Sequence record: MN850617.1
Reading direction: 5' to 3' (one strand)
DNA length: 42,476 bases
DNA from: Escherichia phage forsur
Notes under the pieces: model-generated
The model's input: the letters and a program-made list of their open reading frames with translations, nothing else
Databases searched by the model: none
Told to the model about the DNA's origin: nothing
Made by a program: the position numbers and the translations under genes
Part shown: positions 1,891-33,381 of the stretch, piece by piece
How the letters are laid out: each line of letters opens with the position of its first letter
Position numbering within the stretch: the stretch's first letter is position 1

Positions 1891-2124
1891 ATGAGCAGAT
1901 ACCAACGAGCCATTGAGGATACCGTGGTCGAGAAAGGTGTGTGCGGGGAGTGCCACGGCTGTGGCACATTCACCAGCATGACCATTCGACACGAGCTTGT
2001 CCAAACTGAATGTGAAGCCTGTGGTGGCACAGGCGTGACTGACCCGGCACTGCAACGTTCAGTGCTGCGGGAACAAGGTATGCGCTGCCAAGTGCAGCCG
2101 GGCTATGACCAACCAACGGAGTAA
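1891..2124 (+). CDS. DnaJ-type zinc-finger protein (77 aa)
   Basis: AGGAG 5 nt upstream of ATG 1891. Two CxxCxGxG motifs (CGECHGCG, CEACGGTG). Confidence 0.65.
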   Translation: MSRYQRAIEDTVVEKGVCGECHGCGTFTSMTIRHELVQTECEACGGTGVTDPALQRSVLREQGMRCQVQPGYDQPTE

Positions 2125-4559
2125 TGATGGACTTACTTGCTGAGCAGATTCGACTGGAAGAAGAAGCGCGAGCCAGACACCGCGAGGGCTGGCTGGATAA
2201 TATCAGAGAGGCGTTGGCCGCTGGCCGGGCTGGTTCAGTACCATTGCTCCAGCGTATGATGGTTGAGGCGTATCCTCAAGTTGAAGCTGCGATGCAAGAA
2301 CTCCTGAATGAAACTGCCCGTGGCTATGGTGCGCAGTACCGGACATACATGCGGGAGCTGGGGCCGCGAGCTTGTGCCTCACTCGCGTTGAGCATGGCTG
2401 TGTCCGGTGCCGCTGCTGAGCAAGCAGTGCTTAACTTGCTCAAGGACATGGGCAAGGCTCTCATGGCTGAGGTGGTGTACCTTCGGGCCAAGGCTGCCGG
2501 GCCTGTGCAGGCTGCGTACATGGCCAAGGTTAAGACTGACGTTAAGCGCTCTCGTTCCAAGTCAGCTAACCATGTGTATAACAAGGCGAAAGCGTCGGCG
2601 TCTAACGTTGGCGTTGAGCTGGATATCCTGCCACAGCGTGCGCTCATCACCATTGGTAAGATGATGATGAAGTGCATCGAGCCTACTGGTCTGCTGGTCA
2701 CTATGCGTGTCGGCGGCAACCACCGTCAGCGCGGCACCGCGCACTTCGCACTGCATGAAGATGTGCTGGCAACGATGAAAGATTGGATGGACTTGCCACG
2801 GGCAGACGGCCTGTGCTGTCCTCCAATGATTATCCCGCCAGCGCAGATTGCACGCGATGGTCGTAGTGGTATGTGGCACTCGCCGGGGCAGGCTGCCATG
2901 TACCGGGCAATCAGCCGCATGAACCACCGTGGCTACCGTGCGCTGGGTGTTGACCCACTGCCCATCATAGAGCCGTGTATGATGCTCAGCAGCGTTCCGT
3001 ACCGAGTTAACCCAATGGTATTGGAGTTCCTGAGAACGAACCGTACAGGCGTTATGGGGCTGCCTGTGCCGCCTCGTGAGCCTAAGCTCCCGTTCACCAT
3101 CCCGGCTGGTGTCAGCTTCGCTCAGTACATTAGCAAGTTCCCACCAGAAATGCAGCAGCAGATGGAGTCGGAAGCCCACGAGTACAAGGTGAAGACCCGT
3201 CTGTATTACAACGAGCTGCGCAAGTTCACGTCACAAATGCTGGCGCTGAACGGTGCAGTCAAAGAGGCCGAGCGCTATGCGCCATACGATAGGGTATATC
3301 TCCCGACTTACGCCGATACGCGGGGCCGAATTTATTATTCTTCGACCCTTAACCCTCAGTCCATCGACGCGGTGCGAGCGCTGCTCGAACTTGCTGAACC
3401 AGTGGCTCTCGGAGACGAGGGGCTGTTCTGGCTCAAGGTACATGTTGCGAATTGTTTTGGATACGACGCCACCGACTTCGACGACCGGGCGGCGTGGACG
3501 GACAAAACACTCCCCCGACTACGTGAGGCGTGCCGTCTTCCAGAGGCATTTGATTCGTTCTGGTCAGAAGCCGATAGCCCTATCTCAGCGTGGGCTGCTG
3601 CTGTTGAACTCATTCGAGCTATCGACTCAGGAAGTCCTGAGACTTATCCCTGCCGAGTGGTTACGCAGTGGGACGCTACATGTTCAGGACTCCAGCACCT
3701 CAGTGCGATGCTACGCGATGAGGTTGGAGGTGCTGCTGTCAATCTTGTCGATAGCGTGGGAAGAAAAGCAGACATATATCTTAAGACGGCAGCAGCGGCG
3801 ATGCAGGCTCTTGAAGAAAGTGAAGCGGCTGCGCCGACGACAATGGGTTCGTGGCTTGTTTCCATCGGCATTGTTCGGGCTATGGCCAAGAAGCCAGTGA
3901 TGACCTACGTGTACGGGGCAACCCGGCACGGCATGGTTGACTACTACTGCCTGTATCTGCGTGAGAACCGGGTCAAGCTGCCGGAGGGTAAGAGCCTGCT
4001 GGAGTGTGCTCAGTTCATTGCTGAGTTTATGTGGGCTGCTATCCCCCGCGTCGTGCCGAAAGCTGCCGAGCTGATGGCATGGTTGCAGGCTATCGCAGTA
4101 GAGGCTGCGAGCATGGGTGAGTACGTGGAGTTCACTGCGCCGTCCGGTCTTCGTGTGGTCAATCTGTATCAGGCCAGCAAAGAGATTGCGCTGAACAACA
4201 TCAACCTCATGGGTATCCACGGCATCAAGCTGCGCGAGTATCTGGATAAGCCAGATGGTCGCAAGTGTGCCGCTGCGATTGCTCCGAATTTTGTACACGC
4301 CATGGATGCCAGTCACATGATGAAGGTTCTGTGGGAGATGTGGAATAACGGGGTATACATGGTATCCATCCACGACTCGTTCGGTGTAGCGGCAGCCCAT
4401 GCTGGGTTACTGCACAAGGTCATCCGTGAAAAGTTTGTGCAGATGTATGAGGAATGTGACCCTATTCAGCAACTTGCGTCAGCATATAACCGTGAAGCTC
4501 CAGCTCGCGGTAATCTGGACATCCAGCTTGTGAAGAAATCAAGCAAGTTCTTCTGCTGA
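2124..4559 (+). CDS. T7-like single-subunit DNA-dependent RNA polymerase (811 aa)
   Basis: KKPVMTYVYGATRHG (motif B-like) and SIHDSFG (motif C catalytic Asp). Size and position (just before the structural genes) fit phiKMV-type phages. Confidence 0.95.
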   Translation: MMDLLAEQIRLEEEARARHREGWLDNIREALAAGRAGSVPLLQRMMVEAYPQVEAAMQELLNETARGYGAQYRTYMRELGPRACASLALSMAVSGAAAEQAVLNLLKDMGKALMAEVVYLRAKAAGPVQAAYMAKVKTDVKRSRSKSANHVYNKAKASASNVGVELDILPQRALITIGKMMMKCIEPTGLLVTMRVGGNHRQRGTAHFALHEDVLATMKDWMDLPRADGLCCPPMIIPPAQIARDGRSGMWHSPGQAAMYRAISRMNHRGYRALGVDPLPIIEPCMMLSSVPYRVNPMVLEFLRTNRTGVMGLPVPPREPKLPFTIPAGVSFAQYISKFPPEMQQQMESEAHEYKVKTRLYYNELRKFTSQMLALNGAVKEAERYAPYDRVYLPTYADTRGRIYYSSTLNPQSIDAVRALLELAEPVALGDEGLFWLKVHVANCFGYDATDFDDRAAWTDKTLPRLREACRLPEAFDSFWSEADSPISAWAAAVELIRAIDSGSPETYPCRVVTQWDATCSGLQHLSAMLRDEVGGAAVNLVDSVGRKADIYLKTAAAAMQALEESEAAAPTTMGSWLVSIGIVRAMAKKPVMTYVYGATRHGMVDYYCLYLRENRVKLPEGKSLLECAQFIAEFMWAAIPRVVPKAAELMAWLQAIAVEAASMGEYVEFTAPSGLRVVNLYQASKEIALNNINLMGIHGIKLREYLDKPDGRKCAAAIAPNFVHAMDASHMMKVLWEMWNNGVYMVSIHDSFGVAAAHAGLLHKVIREKFVQMYEECDPIQQLASAYNREAPARGNLDIQLVKKSSKFFC

Positions 4560-4584
4560 ATAAAGCATTGTATTCCTTGCTTAT

Positions 4585-4607
4585 TTATGAAAGTGACTAT
4601 AGTGATA
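4585..4607 (+). promoter_or_regulatory. phage-RNAP promoter candidate P1 (TTATGAAAGTGACTATA|GTGATA)
   Basis: 23-nt motif with T7/SP6-like architecture (AT-rich -17..-13, CTATA at -5..-1, G at +1 = 4602). It lies in the gap after the RNAP gene at the head of the late operon. A perfect inverted copy is at 26463..26485 and near copies at 4852 and 33177. Confidence 0.6.
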
Positions 4608-4666
4608 GAATCACGCTACCGGTAGCCCCGTCAGTGGCGGGGGTGCTGCCACTCAGAGAGGATTGT

Positions 4667-4852: not shown

Positions 4853-4874
4853 AATGAAAGTGACTATTATGGGA
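4852..4874 (+). promoter_or_regulatory. weaker phage-promoter-like copy P2 (AAATGAAAGTGACTATT|ATGGGA)
   Basis: 14-nt identity (ATGAAAGTGACTAT) to P1, but -1/+1 diverge. It overlaps the start of the GNAT gene. Confidence 0.3.
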
Positions 4875-5273
4875 AATACAACGCACACGACTATGCCTCT
4901 TGACATTCGGCGTGCGGTGGCCGAGGGCATACAAGCCGAGCGGCCATGGTCAGACCTATCTCCCGATGTGATAGTCGAACGCATGTACGAGGCCACTGCC
5001 GCTGGTTGCGTTGACGTTTACATTACTGCCGACGACGATGGCCTCATGGCTGTTGCTCACATCGGCAGGTTATTCGATATTCATGTGGGCGAGATGGTGG
5101 TCATTATGGCCTCATACGTCTGGCCCCAGTACAGAAACCGTGGAGTGATGCGTGCCATCCTCCGTGTACTCAAAGACGTGGCCCGTTCCGAGGGTGTACG
5201 TTGGTGCGGTTACTCCCACATGGTGCGGCCTTACGTTCAGGAGTACCGCTTCATAGATTTGGAGAAACCGTAA
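4854..5273 (+). CDS. GNAT-family N-acetyltransferase (139 aa; alternative start 4869)
   Basis: VWPQYRNRGVMRAILRVL matches GNAT motif A (R-x-x-G-x-G/A acetyl-CoA loop), preceded by a beta-strand-rich segment. Confidence 0.7.
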   Translation: MKVTIMGNTTHTTMPLDIRRAVAEGIQAERPWSDLSPDVIVERMYEATAAGCVDVYITADDDGLMAVAHIGRLFDIHVGEMVVIMASYVWPQYRNRGVMRAILRVLKDVARSEGVRWCGYSHMVRPYVQEYRFIDLEKP

Positions 5274-8368: not shown

Positions 8369-9361
8369 ATGGCCGACAACTACTATCAGCCGAATCAGTT
8401 CCGTCCACACTGGGGTGGTGCGAACTCTGATAACGACATTCACCTTGAGGTGTATGACCGTGATGTGCAGACCCAGTTCATCTACAACTCCATCTTCCGC
8501 AGCGGCCTGACCAACTTCAAGTCTGTTGCGAACCAGTCCAACACTTGGCGTGGCGACCGTCTCGGCTCCGTGTCTGTGAAGGGCCGTAAGTCTGGTCAGT
8601 CTCTGGACAACCAGCCAGTTCGCTCTGAGAAGCTGATTGTCACTGTGGATACCGTGTCTTACATCCGTATCCCGATTGACTATCAGGACGACTGGACTGC
8701 GCCGGACTTCCGTGCTGAGCTGACCCGTAACATGGGTACTGCACAGGCGAAAGCGTTCGACCAAGCGCACGTCATCCAGCTCCAGAAGTCTGCTGACTTC
8801 GTTCCTCCGACCTCTCTGGCAGGCGCGTTCAACTCCGGTATCAAGGAGAAAGTAACGCTGACTGGCACCGTGGCTTCTGAGGAAGACGATGCAAGCGCAC
8901 TGGTGCATGGTCACAAGAAAGTCATTGAGGCGTTCATTCGCCGCGACGCCGACCTTGGCCGTCTGGTAACGCTGATTGACCCGGCGTGGTTCAGCATCCT
9001 GCTGGAGCACAAGAAACTGATGAACGTTGAGTTCACTGGTGGTCGTGGTGTGAACGACTTCGCTATGCGTCGTGTTGCTTACGTGAACGGTATCCGTATC
9101 ATCGAGAGCAACGCATTCCCGCAGGCAGCAATCACCAACCACATCCTCGGTGCCGACTTCAACGTCACCGCCGAAGAAATCAAGCGTAAGATGATTATCT
9201 TCGACCCGTCTCTGGCTCTGGTCACTGTCGAAGCCCAACCGCTATTCAACCGCGTGTGGGATGACGAACGTGAACTGACCAACGTTCTGGACAGCTTCCA
9301 CATGTACACCGTGGGTCAGCGTCGTCCTGACGTGGTAGGCGTGGTTACTACCGAAGCCTAA
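8369..9361 (+). CDS. major capsid protein, T7 gp10-like (330 aa)
   Basis: Position and size fit. Block similarity to T7 gp10A as recalled (EKLIVTVDTVSY..DYQDDW vs EKVITIDGLL..DIEDAM; C-terminal YTVGQRRPDVVGVV vs YAMGHGGLRPEAAGAVV). Confidence 0.9.
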   Translation: MADNYYQPNQFRPHWGGANSDNDIHLEVYDRDVQTQFIYNSIFRSGLTNFKSVANQSNTWRGDRLGSVSVKGRKSGQSLDNQPVRSEKLIVTVDTVSYIRIPIDYQDDWTAPDFRAELTRNMGTAQAKAFDQAHVIQLQKSADFVPPTSLAGAFNSGIKEKVTLTGTVASEEDDASALVHGHKKVIEAFIRRDADLGRLVTLIDPAWFSILLEHKKLMNVEFTGGRGVNDFAMRRVAYVNGIRIIESNAFPQAAITNHILGADFNVTAEEIKRKMIIFDPSLALVTVEAQPLFNRVWDDERELTNVLDSFHMYTVGQRRPDVVGVVTTEA

Positions 9362-24983: not shown

Positions 24984-25335
24984 CATCCACTCGCGTATGG
25001 GCGCTGTGGAGGCTCGTATGCAATCCGTAGAAACACGCCTCGACAAACACGAGATTCAAATCGCCAACCTTGAGAAAGGTGACGCTGCTATGCTGGCCAA
25101 GCTATCGGAGAACGACTCCCGGTGGCTGGAGATTCAGCAGCAGCTCCGTGTCGTCGAGCAAATTCAGGACATTCAAAAGACTATGAGCCACATCGGTAAG
25201 CTGTTCTCTTACGCGGCTCACGCCGTCAAGTGGTGTCTCCTGACCGCTTCACTCGTTAGCGGTATCTATCTTGCGGTCAAGGCTGGCGACCTAACGGCGC
25301 TCCAGTCCTTTATCACAACGATTATGGGGATGTAA
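24952..25335 (+). CDS. membrane protein, holin candidate (127 aa; N-terminal coiled coil, single C-terminal TMD)
   Basis: GAAGGTGAAAG upstream of ATG 24952. TMD VKWCLLTASLVSGIYLAV. Lies immediately upstream of the endolysin and coupled to it (ATGTAATG). Confidence 0.45.
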   Translation: MTEAKKEPAPNIHSRMGAVEARMQSVETRLDKHEIQIANLEKGDAAMLAKLSENDSRWLEIQQQLRVVEQIQDIQKTMSHIGKLFSYAAHAVKWCLLTASLVSGIYLAVKAGDLTALQSFITTIMGM

Positions 25336-25871
25336 TGACTAACTTTGAAATCTGTATGAAGTTCACCGGGCTGGCCGAGGGTGGATACACCAAGCTGCCC
25401 GGTGACACTGGAGGGGAAACCAACCATGGAATTAGTGACGCTCGTGATGGGAAGCTGGATGGCAGAGCTTGTGGTGTCCCTACTGGGCTTGGCGGCACTG
25501 TGTGCGTGCCTATCAAAGACCTCACCAAAGAGCAAGCCGAGGCAATCTATCGCCGGGACTACTACAGCCCCATCAGAGGTGACGAGCTTCACCCTGCGAT
25601 TGCATGTGCCGTGTTTGATTACGGCGTCAACTCCGGCATCTCCCGTGCTGCTAAAGCTCTACAGCGGGTATGCGGCGTTGCACAGGACGGGGACATTGGT
25701 ACTGTCACCTTGGAAGCAGCACAACGTCTGGAACCTCACGCCGCAGCAGCAGCCATCTGTGACCTTCGTATTGCGTTCCTAAAGGCTTCTAAAGCCCCGA
25801 CAGTCGTTCGGTATAGGGATGCCTTGGTTGCTCGTGCAAAACGCTGTAGCGCTTACTGTGCGACGCTGTAG
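25335..25871 (+). CDS. endolysin, GH108-type muramidase with a PG_binding_3-like C-terminal domain (178 aa)
   Basis: N-terminal GLAEGGYTKLPGDTGGETNHGIS (the EGGY..D.GG.T..GI signature) and a later QDGDIGTVTLEAA motif. No signal or SAR segment. Confidence 0.85.
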   Translation: MTNFEICMKFTGLAEGGYTKLPGDTGGETNHGISDARDGKLDGRACGVPTGLGGTVCVPIKDLTKEQAEAIYRRDYYSPIRGDELHPAIACAVFDYGVNSGISRAAKALQRVCGVAQDGDIGTVTLEAAQRLEPHAAAAAICDLRIAFLKASKAPTVVRYRDALVARAKRCSAYCATL

Positions 25872-25900
25872 GGGCATCTGAAAGCTGACACATTGAACAG

Positions 25901-25930
25901 GCCGTGGGTGCAATACCCCGGCTTGAAAAT
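25901..25930 (+). terminator. stem-loop after the last late gene (weak terminator candidate)
   Basis: GCCGtGGG-TGCAATA-CCCCGGC (25901..25922) followed by TTGAAAATTG. Confidence 0.35.
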
Positions 25931-25939
25931 TGAACGTTT

Positions 25940-26455
25940 ATGCGTGGGCCTCCCTCGACCCGAATGACCGCGCGTACCCCCATGACGTGTGCGCGGATTA
26001 GCCTCGCGACGTGCGCGATATTGCTCGCGTGCGCTGCGCGGCGCGTCAAGAGGATTGCCTGCGTGCGGTATAGCTCGTGCGTGTCGCGTTTCATCGTCTG
26101 CCGTGTGGCGTGCTGTGCGCTGTCCTGCTGGCTGTGCTGTGCGGTGCTGTCCTATGGGGACGCTCTGCGCTGGCTGTGCTGTGCTGCGTGCTGCGCTCGG
26201 TCGGGCGGGTATCTGTCTCTTTTGCCGTGGTACGCTCTGCGCCGTGGTGGTGCTGTGTGGTGGTGGTGCTGCCGTGGTGCTGTCCTGTCTGCTGGTCTAC
26301 TGTCTGCGCCGCCAGCTCTGCGCGTCATGCTCTGCTACCTGCTGCTACTGTCCTACTGCGTTCACTGGCTGCCGCCTGTCATCCTGTCGGATTCCATCCG
26401 TTGCCGTTCCGCGCTCGCTTGTTTCGGCTGCGCCGCGCTCGCTCTGCGTATCTAG
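25940..26455. repeat. GC-rich, A-depleted (+ strand) low-complexity tract with short degenerate direct repeats; probable location of the collapsed terminal repeat / concatemer junction
   Basis: By hand count there are about 15 A in 26101..26450, with A-free runs of 53, 50 and 66 nt. Recurring GCTGTGCTGTGC, GGTGCTGTCCTG, GCCGTGGT and CGCTCTGCGC units. Confidence 0.7.
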
Positions 26456-26462
26456 CGATACA

Positions 26463-26485
26463 TATCACTATAGTCACTTTCATAA
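26463..26485 (-). promoter_or_regulatory. phage-RNAP promoter candidate P3, inverted (leftward) perfect copy of P1
   Basis: The reverse complement of 26463..26485 equals TTATGAAAGTGACTATAGTGATA, identical to 4585..4607. Predicted +1 is the G complementary to 26468, transcribing toward 25940. Confidence 0.5.
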
Positions 26486-26622
26486 TTATCTATTGATATC
26501 AGTAACTTATAACCTATCTGATAACGGTATCTATCCTATGCAATAACCTATTCAATCAAATATTTATTCCTAATGATTACAGTAACTTATCCACTATTTG
26601 AGCTATTCAGTGAAAATAAATC

Positions 26623-26651
26623 TTGCAATGCTGTTTGTGATTTGCTGTAAT
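26623..26651 (+). promoter_or_regulatory. sigma70 early promoter candidate PE0
   Basis: TTGCAA (26623-26628), 17-nt spacer, extended -10 TGcTGTAAT (TGTAAT at 26646-26651). Confidence 0.55.
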
Positions 26652-26726
26652 TCTCATCGCCGGGTAGCAGAACATCGCTACACGGTGGCAAGACGGTAAC
26701 ACTGCTCTTTAACAATCTGGAGTGTA

Positions 26727-26755
26727 TTGACAAGGCAAGCTCACTATGCTGTAAT
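26727..26755 (+). promoter_or_regulatory. sigma70 early promoter PE1
   Basis: Consensus TTGACA (26727-26732), 17-nt spacer, extended -10 TGcTGTAAT (26750-26755). Confidence 0.8.
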
Positions 26756-26863
26756 GCTTCCAGTCAGCCAGACAAGCCAAACAGTCATGGATAAAGACGT
26801 TAAAACCCGCGCAGGCTAACTGGTACGGATTATTCATCTCAGAATGGGCGCTGAATAAAACGG

Positions 26864-26892
26864 TTGACAGGATGAAACGAGTATGCTGTAAT
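26864..26892 (+). promoter_or_regulatory. sigma70 early promoter PE2
   Basis: TTGACA (26864-26869), 17-nt spacer, TGcTGTAAT (26887-26892). Confidence 0.8.
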
Positions 26893-26944
26893 ACGCTCCA
26901 GATTGACAGGGCAAGCAAGCCTGACAGTCAGTAGTAAAAAGTAG

Positions 26945-26973
26945 TTGACAAGCTGAATACACTGTGTTGTAAT
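26945..26973 (+). promoter_or_regulatory. sigma70 early promoter PE3
   Basis: TTGACA (26945-26950), 17-nt spacer, TGtTGTAAT (26968-26973). Confidence 0.8.
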
Positions 26974-27451
26974 CAGCACCGAGTTGGAAGGATGCAAAAC
27001 ATCCTGCTCTGAGTGAACGCAAACTGGCCGCGTAGTGTCACGGCTCACTGGGTATCCGCCGCAGGTTGGAACTGGGTGAGGCATCGCCGAAAGGCAACGG
27101 TATCGCAACAATGCTAACGCCGTAGGGGTAGCGCCTGATGCAAGGTAACGGAGAAGCGCGATAGACGCAGCGCAGTATCAGTACAATACCAAACGTCTTA
27201 TAAGGCGCGGAGTATAGCGGGTAGGTAGTCAAACGGCTTGTTAGCTGGCAACGGTGAGCAAGATACGCGACGGACTGCTGGAAGACTCCTGAGAGTGGAT
27301 GCAGACAATATCCACAGCGCGAAATGGGCGGGGCGATTTTTCAGGGTAGTGAATCCGACAAGCCAATCAATGCCACTGAGTGCAGACTGTACGGCGCGTC
27401 ACAATGGGTTCACTATCCACCTGAAAATAGCCAACAACTGGAGAAATAACT

Positions 27452-27844
27452 ATGTACCGTATCTATGCAAGCGCATATCGTCAGAACAACGCTGAGTGTG
27501 TTAATCTGGCGCTTCATTGCAAGGCACTGCGAACGGTGCAGGATATGTTCGGAGTGATTCCGGTCACACTGACAGGCAAGTTCGACAATGCGTATGAGTT
27601 AAGCATGGTCTTTCCTGTCGATGGAATCTACGAAATCAGACAGGCTGTTAAGCTGTTCTGTAAAGCCTTTGAACAGGACTGCATCATGGTAGTGACCGAT
27701 GACAATGATGCAATCTTCATGGATTCACCATATCCGGGCAAGCCTGCTGGCAAGTTTGTCAGCAAGACAGAAGCGGAGATGGAAGCCGGGCAGTTCACTG
27801 CTTGGACTTACGATGGTGAGCAATTTTGGGTAGTGGAGGCGTAA
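27452..27844 (+). CDS. first early protein, T3 gp0.3-like SAM hydrolase/lyase candidate (130 aa)
   Basis: GGAG upstream. Block resemblance to T3 SAMase as I recall it (ASAYRQNNAECVNL.. vs VSAFRSNLCDEVNM..; FCKAFEQDCIMVV vs ACNEWEQDCVLVY). Occupies the first early gene position. Confidence 0.5.
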   Translation: MYRIYASAYRQNNAECVNLALHCKALRTVQDMFGVIPVTLTGKFDNAYELSMVFPVDGIYEIRQAVKLFCKAFEQDCIMVVTDDNDAIFMDSPYPGKPAGKFVSKTEAEMEAGQFTAWTYDGEQFWVVEA

Positions 27845-32988: not shown

Positions 32989-33142
32989 GCTCACCGTAAC
33001 CAAATCACCCACCGGATTATTCTGGTGGGTAGTTGATAAGCTGCAACCAAATAAACCTTTGGCTGTGCGTGATACAAAGTGGGAAGCCGAGAGTAAACTC
33101 GAAGACCTTCAACGTATTATGCGGAATGTTATTCCAGCTTAG
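32972..33142 (+). CDS. possible small protein (56 aa)
   Basis: Below the track cutoff, with only a weak RBS. It fills the gap before P4. An internal 9-bp hairpin (33007..33030) could instead be a regulatory stem-loop. Confidence 0.35.
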   Translation: MQHVTKLTVTKSPTGLFWWVVDKLQPNKPLAVRDTKWEAESKLEDLQRIMRNVIPA

Positions 33143-33176
33143 CCATCTACTCATGCCAGTTATTATTTAGCTGGCA

Positions 33177-33199
33177 TTATGAAGGTGACTATATTGGAC
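33177..33199 (+). promoter_or_regulatory. phage-RNAP promoter candidate P4 (TTATGAAGGTGACTATA|TTGGAC)
   Basis: 16 of 17 identity to P1 over -17..-1. Intergenic, at the head of the replication module. Directly preceded by the hairpin ATGCCAG-(11 nt)-CTGGCAT (33153..33177). Confidence 0.55.
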
Positions 33200-33213
33200 A
33201 ACCCGGAGGAAAT

Positions 33214-33381
33214 ATGTTTCGTGTATTAATGTTATTCGTACTCGTCGTTATATTGTGGGGCGCGTTATGGGTAGGCGTTGCCTATTTAATTCAGCCTTAC
33301 ATTGGCGAACAGCTTACCTCTGTAATTGGTACGCTGCTTGGGCTTTGTTGTTGGCGCAGTTGGTATGTCCAAGTGCATTGA
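33214..33381 (+). CDS. small membrane protein (55 aa)
   Basis: GGAGGA 4 nt upstream. Two hydrophobic segments. Below the track cutoff. Confidence 0.55.
   Translation: MFRVLMLFVLVVILWGALWVGVAYLIQPYIGEQLTSVIGTLLGLCCWRSWYVQVH

What the first reader, a model, noticed from the sequence alone, without database searches (positions are those of the whole stretch)
26456..26622. AT-rich block with iterated CTAT/TATC elements, 11-nt direct repeats and an IHF-consensus site between the inverted phage promoter and the early promoters
Seen in sequence: base composition switches abruptly from the GC-rich tract to AT-rich DNA at about 26456. CAGTAACTTAT occurs twice (about 26499 and 26579) and ATAACCTAT twice (about 26508 and 26544). 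CTAT occurs about nine times. AATCAAATATTTA (26554-26566) fits the IHF consensus WATCAANNNNTTR.

Inference: this may be an origin-like or DNA-bending region, or UP-element/IHF enhancement of the early promoters.
Basis: partly seen in the sequence, partly recalled or inferred. Interest (0 to 1): 0.4.

Follow-up and report, generated by a model that had tools for sequence, protein, structure and literature searches.

The report
Left-end divergent promoter control region
This AT-rich stretch is the control region near the left end of a T7-relative phage genome: a phage-polymerase promoter pointing back toward the genome end sits back to back with the upstream DNA of the first host-polymerase promoter. 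The layout is a variant of a known one, but its left part is also carried by satellite-like islands in bacterial chromosomes.

Summary
Window 26456-26622 is 27.5% GC and is the least stable duplex of a 55%-GC genome. It has a significant CTAT/TATC excess, a 32-nt direct repeat (R1/R2, 80 bp apart) and a perfect IHF consensus.

The window is a permuted Bonnellvirus (J8-65-like) genome. The block lies about 500 bp right of the terminal repeat, where T7 has phiOL, AT-rich DNA and A1. It has two parts.

- **Left part:** a phage-RNAP promoter (26485->26464) pointing left, plus R1. Its specificity bases co-vary with the forward promoters in ten genomes of three lineages.
- **Right part:** an ATCAA/IHF-like core, R2, and a UP-like A-tract abutting a fourth sigma70 promoter (26623-26651) whose leader carries boxA. 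An 11-12 bp indel in one clade roughly preserves helical phase.

UP-type enhancement is supported by sequence; IHF only moderately. A T7-type origin is not met as such, because the AT DNA is upstream of the promoter. However, the left part plus the adjoining A-poor tract is carried by about 15-kb satellite-like islands in 54 of 5,426 E. coli genomes. The homology ends at 26510/26511, just after R1, in 38 of the 40 listed records. That suggests a separate cis element for replication or packaging. No function has been tested.

The parts
26456..26622 (.). AT-rich block (27.5% GC): least stable duplex of the genome
26463..26488 (-). Phage single-subunit RNAP promoter pointing LEFT (5'-TTATGAAAGTGACTATAGTGAT-3' on the minus strand, 26485->26464). 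The inferred +1 is G at 26468.
   Evidence: It is a 26-nt inverted copy of the late promoter at 4582-4607. Its specificity bases co-vary with the forward promoters in ten genomes. The conserved span is -17..+5.
26490..26521 (+). Direct repeat R1 (core TCAGTAACTTA, 26499-26509), just upstream (-31 to -41) of the leftward phage promoter
   Evidence: It is the last element shared with the chromosomal islands; homology ends at 26510/26511. It is degenerate in the J8-65 clade.
26554..26566 (+). IHF-consensus match AATCAAATATTTA, centred about -98 from the P1 start
   Evidence: AATCAAA is invariant in 17 relatives and the full consensus is present in 9 of 17.
26570..26601 (+). Direct repeat R2 (core ACAGTAACTTA, 26579-26589), centred about -74 from the P1 start
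   Evidence: ACTTA is invariant across three lineages. It lies 37-38 nt before the -35 in window/J8-65/UViG/LIMEzero and about one helical turn closer in clade B.
26603..26622 (+). UP-element-like A/T tract (TGAAAATAA 26611-26619) abutting the -35 of P1
   Evidence: The 11-nt deletion of GAGCTATTCAG (26600-26610) in clade B lies just upstream of it.
26623..26651 (+). P1, the first early sigma70-type promoter: TTGCAA-N17-TGc-TGTAAT. Expected start is about 26656-26658.
   Evidence: PWM score 11.2, fourth best of the region. The hexamers are invariant in nearly all 17 relatives (one has TTGCCA) while the 17-18 nt spacer varies in sequence.
26704..26720 (+). boxA-like GCTCTTTAACAATCTGG in the P1 leader
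   Evidence: The boxA 12-mer has one exact match in the window. The same 17-mer is in T7 at 815-831. It is invariant apart from the final G in 17 relatives.
26727..26973 (+). P2, P3, P4: three TTGACA-N17-TGnTGTAAT early promoters (26727-55, 26864-92, 26945-73)
26080..26455 (.). GC-rich tract that is A-poor on the + strand, transcribed by the leftward promoter. Its right 110-145 nt travel with the promoter and R1 in the chromosomal islands.
25955..26213 (.). Approximate single copy of the direct terminal repeat, placed by alignment to the annotated 259-bp repeat of J8-65
4585..4606 (+). Late phage promoter after the RNAP gene (reference copy of the motif)
   Evidence: LIMEzero annotates a phage-specific promoter at the same place.
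33171..33193 (+). Third phage promoter, TTATGAAGGTGACTATATTGGAC, in the third least stable 100-bp (second least stable 150-bp) region

Best explanation
The block is the divergent-promoter control region at the left end of a Bonnellvirus genome. It occupies the position that T7 gives to phiOL, AT-rich DNA and A1. It has two parts.

(1) Its left ~55 bp are a phage-RNAP promoter that fires leftward, plus the adjoining repeat R1. Transcription runs away from all genes, into the A-poor GC-rich tract and toward the terminal repeat. The RNA is non-coding.

(2) Its right ~110 bp are the upstream activating region of P1 (26623-26651), the first of four early host-RNAP promoters. This region holds a UP-like A-tract contacting the -35, the phase-locked repeat R2 at about -74, and an ATCAA core at about -98 that fits the IHF consensus. 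P1 transcripts then read through a boxA.

Shown here: the anatomy, the conservation, the co-variation and the orientation.

Inferred: alpha-CTD/UP and IHF action on P1, the +1 positions, and any role of the leftward transcript.
For: Identity and position:
- The window is a Bonnellvirus.
- The J8-65 terminal repeat aligns to about 25955-26213, so the block is about 500-670 nt from the left end.
- T7 has the same order: TR, repeats, phiOL, about 60 nt of 22-28% GC, then the A1 -35.

The phage promoter:
- It is a 26-nt inverted copy of the post-RNAP promoter, the best long-range repeat in the genome.
- The -8..-6 bases co-vary between the left-end copy and the forward copies. They read GTGAC, GTGTC, GCTAC and GTAAC within bonnellviruses. 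LIMEzero has GGCAAGCAC and UViG_2228664000 has AAACTACTATC.
- In the J8-65 clade only the upstream half is shared between copies, which fixes the orientation.

P1 and its upstream region:
- The -35 and -10 are invariant in nearly all 17 relatives (one has TTGCCA), with a variable 17-18 nt spacer.
- PWM score is 11.2, and no comparable promoter lies inside the block on either strand.
- TGAAAATAA, the R2 ACTTA and AATCAAA are conserved across relatives.
- Clade B shortens the R2-to-(-35), IHF-to-(-35) and phage-promoter-to-(-35) distances by 11-12 bp together.
- boxA lies in the leader.

The leftward RNA is non-coding: there is no conserved minus-strand ORF to the left of the promoter.
Against: - No transcription, binding or replication data exist for any bonnellvirus.
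- The IHF consensus is not kept in 8 of 17 relatives, nor at the homologous site in two other lineages.
- R1/R2 match no factor consensus that I tested, so their role is unknown.
- The left half of the block keeps its AT-richness and length but not its sequence in the J8-65 clade and in LIMEzero. A pure protein-site model does not explain this.
- Chromosomal islands keep the promoter, R1 and the tract without P1. This points to a cis function beyond promoter control.
Confidence: 0.6

Rival explanations
1. Replication origin of the T7 kind in a rearranged geometry. The leftward phage promoter makes a U-poor, purine-rich RNA that stays hybridised to the A-poor tract as an R-loop or primer. The AT-rich block behind the polymerase is flanked by divergent promoters and melts under transcription-generated negative supercoiling, allowing helicase loading.
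For: - Every T7 origin needs a T7-RNAP promoter (PMC8373140).
- The block is the least stable duplex of the genome, and the other two phage promoters sit in the next least stable regions.
- The predicted RNA:DNA hybrid for the leftward RNA over 26119-26443 is the most stable 300-nt window on either strand. The rightward RNA over the same tract has a below-average hybrid advantage (parameters recalled from memory).
- About 15-kb satellite-like islands have no DNA polymerase among the annotated or family-matched genes (several ORFs are unassigned). They keep exactly tract + promoter + R1 at up to 97.6% identity, with the promoter pointing away from their operon.
- AT-richness and length of the left half are conserved without sequence conservation.
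Against: - In T7 origins the AT-rich DNA lies downstream of the promoter and is where RNA-to-DNA transitions occur. Here it is upstream.
- The forward promoter at 33171 lies 17% from the left end, upstream of the replication genes. It is a better positional match to the T7 primary origin.
- The hybrid-stability extreme is only about 3 sd, and one + strand window is similar.
- Type 2 islands keep about 50 nt of the tract without the inverted promoter.
- There are no replication data.
Confidence: 0.22
2. Concatemer-junction processing or packaging element. Leftward transcription toward the terminal repeat, meeting rightward late transcription that pauses at a class-II-like site at the repeat's right edge, helps the terminase recognise or duplicate the repeat. 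The AT block is mainly the promoter's upstream flank.
For: - TATCTGTCTCTTTT at 26210-26224 lies at the projected right edge of the repeat. T7 has ATCTGTT at 161-167 and SP6 has ATCTGTT at 174-180, in the same place.
- From established T7 work (my own knowledge; not retrieved here), RNAP pausing at that site is needed for concatemer maturation.
- T7 also has a leftward promoter (A0, host type) between the repeat and phiOL.
- Satellites must be packaged by the helper, and they keep this cassette.
Against: - The islands do not show recognisable homology to the repeat itself.
- The promoter is about 250 nt from the repeat.
- No packaging data exist.
- SP6 has no phage promoter at its left end in either orientation, so the arrangement is not general.
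Confidence: 0.12
3. No specific function: an AT-rich spacer with relics of promoter duplications. R1/R2 resemble the promoter core on the opposite strand, AAGTTACTGTA versus AAGTGACTATA.
For: - R1/R2 share 9 of 11 core positions with the promoter when read on the minus strand (my reading).
- Left-end promoter duplications arise readily in T7 evolution experiments (PMC6171733).
Against: - The architecture and module length (134 or 145-146 nt from the promoter arm to the -35) are conserved in 17 bonnellviruses.
- The layout recurs in two other lineages with different sequences.
- R1-R2 spacing of 79-80 nt is kept even where both repeats have changed sequence, as in UViG_2228664000.
- R1/R2 do not co-vary with the promoter specificity bases.
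Confidence: 0.04

Closest known systems
Phage T7 left end: phiOL promoter, AT-rich stretch, E. coli promoter A1 (nt 405-498), with boxA-like sequence in the early leader
   Same: - Same order from the left end: terminal repeat, class-II-like ATCTGT site, short-repeat tract, one phage-RNAP promoter, very AT-rich DNA running into the -35 of the first strong host promoter.
- Several tandem host promoters follow.
- The same 17-mer GCTCTTTAACAATCTGG is present.
- An anti-restriction gene comes first.
   Different: - The phage promoter points left, not right. It therefore cannot pull the genome in, which is the role proposed for phiOL (PMC6171733).
- It does not transcribe the AT-rich DNA.
- The AT block is about 135 nt rather than about 60 nt, and carries R1/R2 and an IHF-like core.
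- The repeat tract is GC-rich and A-poor instead of CCTAAAG repeats.
T7 replication origins (primary phi1.1A/B, secondary phiOR, phi6.5, etc.)
   Same: A phage-RNAP promoter next to the most easily melted DNA (PMC8373140).
   Different: The AT-rich DNA is upstream of the promoter and the transcribed DNA is GC-rich. No initiation has been mapped.
E. coli rrnB P1-type promoter architecture (UP element, upstream factor sites, boxA antitermination leader); IHF-activated promoters with AT-rich upstream regions such as ilvPG and lambda pL (from my own knowledge)
   Same: - An A-tract at about -40 to -47.
- Conserved, helically phased sites at about -74 and -98.
- boxA about 47 nt into the transcript.
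   Different: - No Fis consensus was seen by eye.
- The factor for R2 is unknown.
- IHF binding is untested.
Burkholderia phage JG068 'nested' left-end phage promoter (PMC3765740)
   Same: It is a phiKMV-like phage with a phage promoter among the left-end host promoters.
   Different: There the promoter is forward and overlaps the first host promoter.
T7 promoter A0 (leftward E. coli promoter at nt 224)
   Same: Leftward transcription toward the left terminal repeat, starting between the repeat and the early promoters.
   Different: It is a host-type, minor promoter, whereas the one here is phage-type.

Membership tests
T7-type single-subunit RNAP promoter | About 23-bp sequence repeated in the genome at intergenic sites upstream of gene blocks | tested here: met
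   There are three copies: 4585 (+, after the RNAP gene), 33171 (+) and 26485 (-). LIMEzero annotates the post-RNAP site as a phage-specific promoter.
T7-type single-subunit RNAP promoter | Specificity positions co-vary with the phage's own other promoters | tested here: met
   Six core variants occur in ten genomes, always matched within a genome.
T7-type single-subunit RNAP promoter | Transcription by the cognate RNAP from the predicted +1 | not testable with these tools
   This needs in vitro run-off transcription or 5'-end mapping.
T7-type replication origin | Contains a phage-RNAP promoter | tested here: met
   requirement stated in PMC8373140
T7-type replication origin | AT-rich region immediately downstream of, and transcribed from, that promoter | tested here: not met
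   The promoter points left. The AT block lies upstream of it, and the DNA downstream is 64% GC.
T7-type replication origin | Replication initiates there | not testable with these tools
   This needs marker-frequency mapping, 2D gels or a plasmid amplification assay.
Iteron or DnaA-type origin | Three or more phased iterons or conserved DnaA boxes | tested here: not met
   There are only two repeats, 80 bp apart. TTATCCACT (26587-26595) matches the DnaA box at 8 of 9 positions but becomes TTATCGCCT or TTATCACTT in relatives. CTAT spacing is irregular.
IHF binding site | Match to WATCAANNNNTTR | tested here: met
   26554-26566 is an exact match, one of 2 in the window.
IHF binding site | Consensus conserved in relatives at the homologous place | tested here: inconclusive
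   It is perfect in 9 of 17. Eight have AATCAAACTTTAA, with one mismatch. LIMEzero and UViG_2228664000 have two mismatches, although LIMEzero has another perfect match 40 nt upstream.
IHF binding site | IHF binds and bends the DNA | not testable with these tools
   This needs a gel shift or footprint.
UP element | A/T-rich tract with an A-run at about -38 to -59 abutting the -35 | tested here: met
   TGAAAATAAATC lies at -47..-36. AAAA(T/A)A is conserved in three lineages.
UP element | Alpha-CTD-dependent stimulation | not testable with these tools
   This needs reporter or in vitro assays with alpha-CTD mutants.
sigma70 promoter (P1) | -35 and -10 hexamers with a 17±1 spacer, conserved hexamers and a drifting spacer | tested here: met
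   TTGCAA-17-TGTAAT with a TGn extension. The spacer is 17 or 18 nt in all 17 relatives and its sequence varies.
Intrinsically curved DNA | Helically phased A-tracts | tested here: not met
   There is no excess AA/TT power at 10-11 bp relative to shuffles.
Known structured RNA | Match to an Rfam family | tested here: not met
   There are no hits at E<=1 in 25800-27500.

The most novel reading that the evidence does not exclude
The leftward phage promoter, the A-poor tract it transcribes and the first ~45 nt of AT-rich DNA (R1) together form a self-contained cis element. It would act as an R-loop-type replication origin or a transcription-dependent packaging signal in bonnellviruses and waewaeviruses. 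This element would be pirated by what may be an undescribed family of about 15-kb integrative satellites of Enterobacteriaceae. Those islands encode a T7-like major capsid protein and carry arrays of forward helper-RNAP promoters with different specificity cores.
Probability: 0.3. Interest if true: 0.75.

Novelty: new variant of a known kind. Interest (0 to 1): 0.5.

Why it matters
- **T7 comparison:** the T7 left end is a textbook control region, with phiOL thought to serve genome entry or secondary initiation. Here three lineages keep a phage promoter at the same place but in the opposite orientation, and it co-evolves with the polymerase. What is selected is therefore transcription toward the genome end, not entry or gene expression.
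- **A ready experimental handle:** the chromosomal islands act as a natural deletion series. They separate the block into a left cassette that they share with the phage and a right, P1-specific half.
- **Satellites:** if the islands are satellites of T7-type virulent phages, that would extend satellite biology to a helper class for which I found no report. It would also explain why the promoter specificity of these polymerases diversifies.
- **Engineering:** P1 with its UP-like tract and boxA is a compact strong early promoter module.

Tried and rejected
- **Block as physical genome end:** rejected. The J8-65 repeat aligns about 500 nt to the left.
- **Rightward orientation of the palindromic-core promoter,** which would have made a perfect phiOL/origin analogue: rejected. 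The conserved span is -17..+5, the J8-65 clade shares only the upstream half, and there are two forward copies upstream of genes.
- **R1/R2 as additional phage promoters:** rejected. They show no co-variation and only 9 of 18 matches over -17..+1.
- **Extra sigma70 promoters inside the block on either strand:** the best scores are about 8, which is common genome-wide.
- **DnaA box TTATCCACT:** not conserved.
- **Fis, CRP, Fur, Lrp, LexA, OmpR and CpxR consensus sequences:** compared by eye from memory with no convincing fit. This is not a formal test.
- **Intrinsic curvature:** no helical periodicity.
- **Structured RNA:** no Rfam hit.
- **Coding potential of the leftward transcript:** minus-strand ORFs are frameshifted or absent among relatives.
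- **GC skew as an origin indicator:** it follows the transcription units only.
- **Wider comparison:**
  - The SAMase, endolysin, RNAP and gp-33409 searches of IMG/VR gave only a few extra contigs.
  - SP6 has no left-end phage promoter.
  - The LIMElight/LIMEzero paper (PMC3126476) is not held.
  - No paper was found on the function of T7 A0 or on satellites of Autographiviridae coliphages.

Full report
**What the window is**

Megablast of 25800-27300 finds only Bonnellvirus genomes (Autographiviridae; J8-65, the Danish 'sur' phages, Kc261, RZ4, ROV85 and others) at 85-96% identity.
- Their annotation places the region between the last gene (endolysin, window 25335-25871) and the first gene (SAM lyase, 27452-27844; Pfam PF23780).
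- The window is therefore a circularly permuted complete genome.
- Its length, 42,476, equals that given for phage 'forsur' in PMC7552041. This match is an inference.
- J8-65 carries an annotated 259-bp direct terminal repeat. Its first 188 nt align to window 25955-26142, so the repeat corresponds to about 25955-26213.
- The finding therefore lies about 500-670 nt inside the left end and is not the physical terminus.

**The observation**

- The block is 27.5% GC against 64% for the 376 nt to its left and 55% for the genome.
- It is the lowest-GC 167-nt window (next 37.7%) and the least stable duplex, about 6 sd from the mean.
- CTAT (8 occurrences, 2.8 expected) and TATC (7 occurrences) are enriched relative to dinucleotide shuffles of the block itself.
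- The two 11-mers are part of a 32-nt direct repeat (R1 26490-26521, R2 26570-26601, 25/32 identical) that no shuffle approached.
- The IHF consensus match is exact, has about a 3% chance inside the block, and is one of two in the window.

**The left edge is a phage promoter pointing left**

The best long-range repeat of the genome is a 26-nt inverted pair, 4582-4607 and 26463-26488.
- The first copy sits just after the RNAP gene (2124-4559; PF00940) and about 50 nt before the first late gene. LIMEzero annotates a 'putative phage specific promoter' at the same place.
- A third copy, with 4 differences over the first 22 nt, is on the + strand at 33171-33193 before the next gene block.
- Within each of ten genomes the left-end copy carries the same specificity bases as that genome's forward copies:

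| Genomes | Specificity core |
|---|---|
| window | GTGAC |
| LF82-23, UViG_2751185941 | GTGTC |
| usur, Kc261 | GCTAC |
| J8-65, smaasur, Lidtsur | GTAAC |
| LIMEzero | GGCAAGCAC |
| UViG_2228664000 | AAACTACTATC |

- The shared span is -17 to +5 if the G of TATAG is +1. In the J8-65 clade only AATGAAAGTAACTGT is shared between copies.
- The motif therefore reads 5'-TTATGAAAGTGACTATAG-3'. At 26485->26464 it fires leftward (+1 about 26468), away from every gene.
- Minus-strand ORFs to its left are not conserved, so the RNA is non-coding.

**The right edge is the upstream region of a fourth early promoter**

A sigma70 weight-matrix scan recovers the three TTGACA-N17-TGnTGTAAT promoters. It also finds TTGCAA-N17-TGcTGTAAT at 26623-26651 (P1), and nothing comparable inside the block on either strand.

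In an alignment of 17 bonnellviruses:
- The P1 hexamers are invariant in nearly all 17 (altidsur reads TTGCCA), while the 17-18 nt spacer drifts.
- TGAAAATAA abutting the -35 is invariant. It lies at about -47 to -39, where a UP proximal subsite is expected.
- The R2 core and AATCAAA are invariant.
- GCTCTTTAACAATCTG is invariant in the P1 leader; the full 17-mer ends in G in most. The same 17-mer occurs in the T7 early leader at 815-831, and the boxA 12-mer has one exact match in the window. It matches the rrn boxA core, which I know from memory.

Clade B (8 genomes) has an 11-nt deletion just upstream of the A-tract and a 1-nt deletion in the IHF spacer. R2, the ATCAA core, R1 and the phage promoter all move 11-12 bp closer to the -35, which is about one helical turn.

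The same right half is recognisably homologous in LIMEzero and UViG_2228664000: ATCAA..., A.A...ACTTA at 37-38 nt from the -35, AAAA.A, CTTG..A. This is the signature of a stereospecific upstream activating region.

IHF itself is less secure. The consensus is perfect in 9 of 17 genomes, off by one in 8, and off by two at the homologous site in the other two lineages.

**Comparison with T7**

T7 has TR (1-160), ATCTGTT (161-167), CCTAAAG repeats, leftward host promoter A0 (224) and phiOL (405, rightward). About 60 nt of 22-28% GC then run into the A1 -35, followed by A2, A3, boxA and gene 0.3.

The present region is the positional equivalent, but the phage promoter is inverted. Two proposed phiOL roles are therefore hard to transfer:
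- RNAP-driven genome entry (PMC6171733) needs rightward transcription.
- A T7-type origin (a promoter is essential: PMC8373140) has its AT-rich DNA downstream of the promoter.

Related cases differ. JG068 has a forward 'nested' left-end promoter. SP6 has none.

**Evidence for a separable left cassette**

A blastn search of the block against 5,426 complete E. coli genomes gave an unexpected result.
- 54 chromosomes hold a match of 80-98% identity.
- In most listed records it starts at window 26311 or 26348.
- In 38 of the 40 listed records it ends at 26510/26511, immediately after R1.

In NCTC11023 the match (97.6% over 166 nt) lies in the 1.26-kb gap between a resolvase-type recombinase and an SF2 helicase gene.
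- These belong to an element of about 15 kb bounded by tRNA-Gly and a tyrosine integrase.
- The element also encodes a major head protein 56-63% identical to the phage's, an HNH endonuclease and an endonuclease VII.

Related islands occur in Kluyvera, Enterobacter, Kosakonia, Trabulsiella and Rosenbergiella.
- **Type 1 islands** keep tract + inverted promoter (cores GTGAC, GTGTC or GCATC) + R1. Island-specific AT-rich DNA follows, then three forward promoter-like sites with different cores before the helicase operon.
- **Type 2 islands** keep only about 50 nt of the tract (window 26352-26399), followed by a forward GCTAC-type promoter.

In type 1 islands the inverted promoter cannot serve the operon. 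Its retention together with the DNA it transcribes argues that transcription into the tract is itself the selected cis function. This is an inference. Recent recombination with helpers could also maintain the identity.

**A mechanistic lead**

- The tract has only 22 A in 388 nt of the + strand, so the leftward RNA is U-poor and 62% purine.
- I used nearest-neighbour hybrid parameters recalled from memory (Sugimoto 1995). With these, its RNA:DNA hybrid over 26119-26443 is the most stable 300-nt window on either strand, about 3.3 sd from the mean. The rightward RNA over the same DNA has a below-average advantage.
- All three phage promoters sit in the three least stable duplex regions.
- This fits an R-loop or primer model, with the AT block as the unwinding element between divergent promoters.
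- It fits equally a role in junction processing next to the class-II-like pause motif TATCTGTCTCTTTT (26210-26224).
- The forward promoter at 33171, 17% from the left end and upstream of the replication genes, remains the better positional analogue of the T7 primary origin.

**Verdict**

- The block is a conserved, bipartite divergent-promoter region: a variant of the T7 phiOL/A1 layout with the phage promoter inverted.
- UP-type enhancement of P1 is well supported by sequence.
- IHF is plausible.
- Iteron-like or T7-type origin function is not supported as stated.
- An origin or packaging role for the left cassette is a live hypothesis, at about 0.3 combined.
- Nothing here has been tested experimentally.

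Noticed in passing
L045 (E. coli NCTC11023 NZ_LS483297.1 921892-939947) 8891-9056; L054; window 26346-26511: About 15-kb integrative island between tRNA-Gly and a tyrosine integrase. It encodes a serine recombinase, an SF2 helicase, a T7-like major head protein (56-63% identical to window 8369-9361), an HNH endonuclease and an endonuclease VII. It carries 166 nt that are 97.6% identical to the phage's tract + inverted promoter + R1. Matches occur in 54 of 5,426 E. coli genomes, including E2348/69. It looks like a satellite of bonnellviruses, and I found no paper describing one.
   Followed up: partly
L045 9240-9320 and about 9185-9207; L047 and L048 (about 1090-1230 of the 1300 nt upstream of the helicase gene): Three forward phage-promoter-like sites with different specificity cores stand in tandem before the island's helicase operon. 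Examples are AATGAAGGTATCTACTAAGG, TTTTGAAAGTGACTATTAAGG and CATGAAAACCTCTATAAGGG. The cores differ between islands. This may be a way to respond to helpers with different RNAP specificities.
   Followed up: partly
L046 (Kosakonia sp. S29) and L049 (Enterobacter sp.), about 950-1040 of the upstream 1300 nt: A second island type keeps only about 50 nt homologous to window 26352-26399. This is followed directly by a forward GCTAC-type promoter, the specificity of Kosakonia phage Kc261 and of usur. The short tract segment may therefore be an element in its own right.
   Followed up: partly
window 26080-26455: GC-rich tract with extreme A depletion on the + strand (17 A of 376) and many GCTG/GTGCTG short repeats. 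The same kind of tract is present in LIMEzero (1-640) and UViG_2228664000. The predicted leftward RNA:DNA hybrid is the most stable in the genome.
   Followed up: partly
window 26210-26224: TATCTGTCTCTTTT lies at the projected right edge of the terminal repeat. It resembles the T7 class II pause/termination signal ATCTGTT, found at T7 161-167 just after its repeat, and SP6 174-180. J8-65 has CTATCTATCTTTTTT 12 nt after its annotated repeat.
   Followed up: partly
window 26704-26720: boxA-like GCTCTTTAACAATCTGG lies in the leader of P1 but upstream of P2-P4. It is preceded by a small hairpin (GTAGC...GCTAC, 26665-26682). The same 17-mer is in T7 (815-831), and variants occur in SP6 (655-672) and LIMEzero (about 930).
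   Followed up: partly
window 33090-33260: Third least stable 100-bp (second least stable 150-bp) region. It contains a hairpin (GCCAG...CTGGC) and the forward phage promoter at 33171-33193, 17% from the left end and upstream of the replication genes. By position it is the best candidate for a T7-like primary origin.
   Followed up: partly
window 4854-5273: GNAT acetyltransferase gene, the second ORF after the late promoter. Its LIMEzero counterpart (ORF36) is listed as a distant homologue of Rac, which triggers cleavage of the RNAP alpha linker in phiKMV-like phages (PMC7552054). If this function is conserved, UP-dependent P1 would be shut off selectively late in infection.
   Followed up: partly
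window 25923-25962: GGCTTGAAAATTG...GGGCCTCCCTCGACCC spans the left boundary of the repeat. J8-65's first base is the T of TCGAC. It is conserved in LIMEzero (about 12-46), UViG_2228664000, UViG_2751185941 and UViG_3300045988, and is probably the terminase cutting or recognition region.
   Followed up: no
window 26463; L002 position 1: The GenBank record of phage glasur starts exactly at the first base of the inverted-promoter repeat arm (window-equivalent 26463). This may be an arbitrary or assembly-determined breakpoint.
   Followed up: no
window 26490-26500 and relatives: R1 exists as two alleles, CTATTGATATCAG and CTAATGATTACAG. They are distributed across clades in a mosaic way, and the islands carry both, which suggests frequent recombination in this region.
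   Followed up: no
window 4607-4650: The late transcript would start with three consecutive hairpins: GTGAT-AGA-ATCAC, GCTAC-CG-GTAGC and CCCCG...CGGGG. The leftward transcript would start with GTATC-GCTA-GATAC.
   Followed up: no
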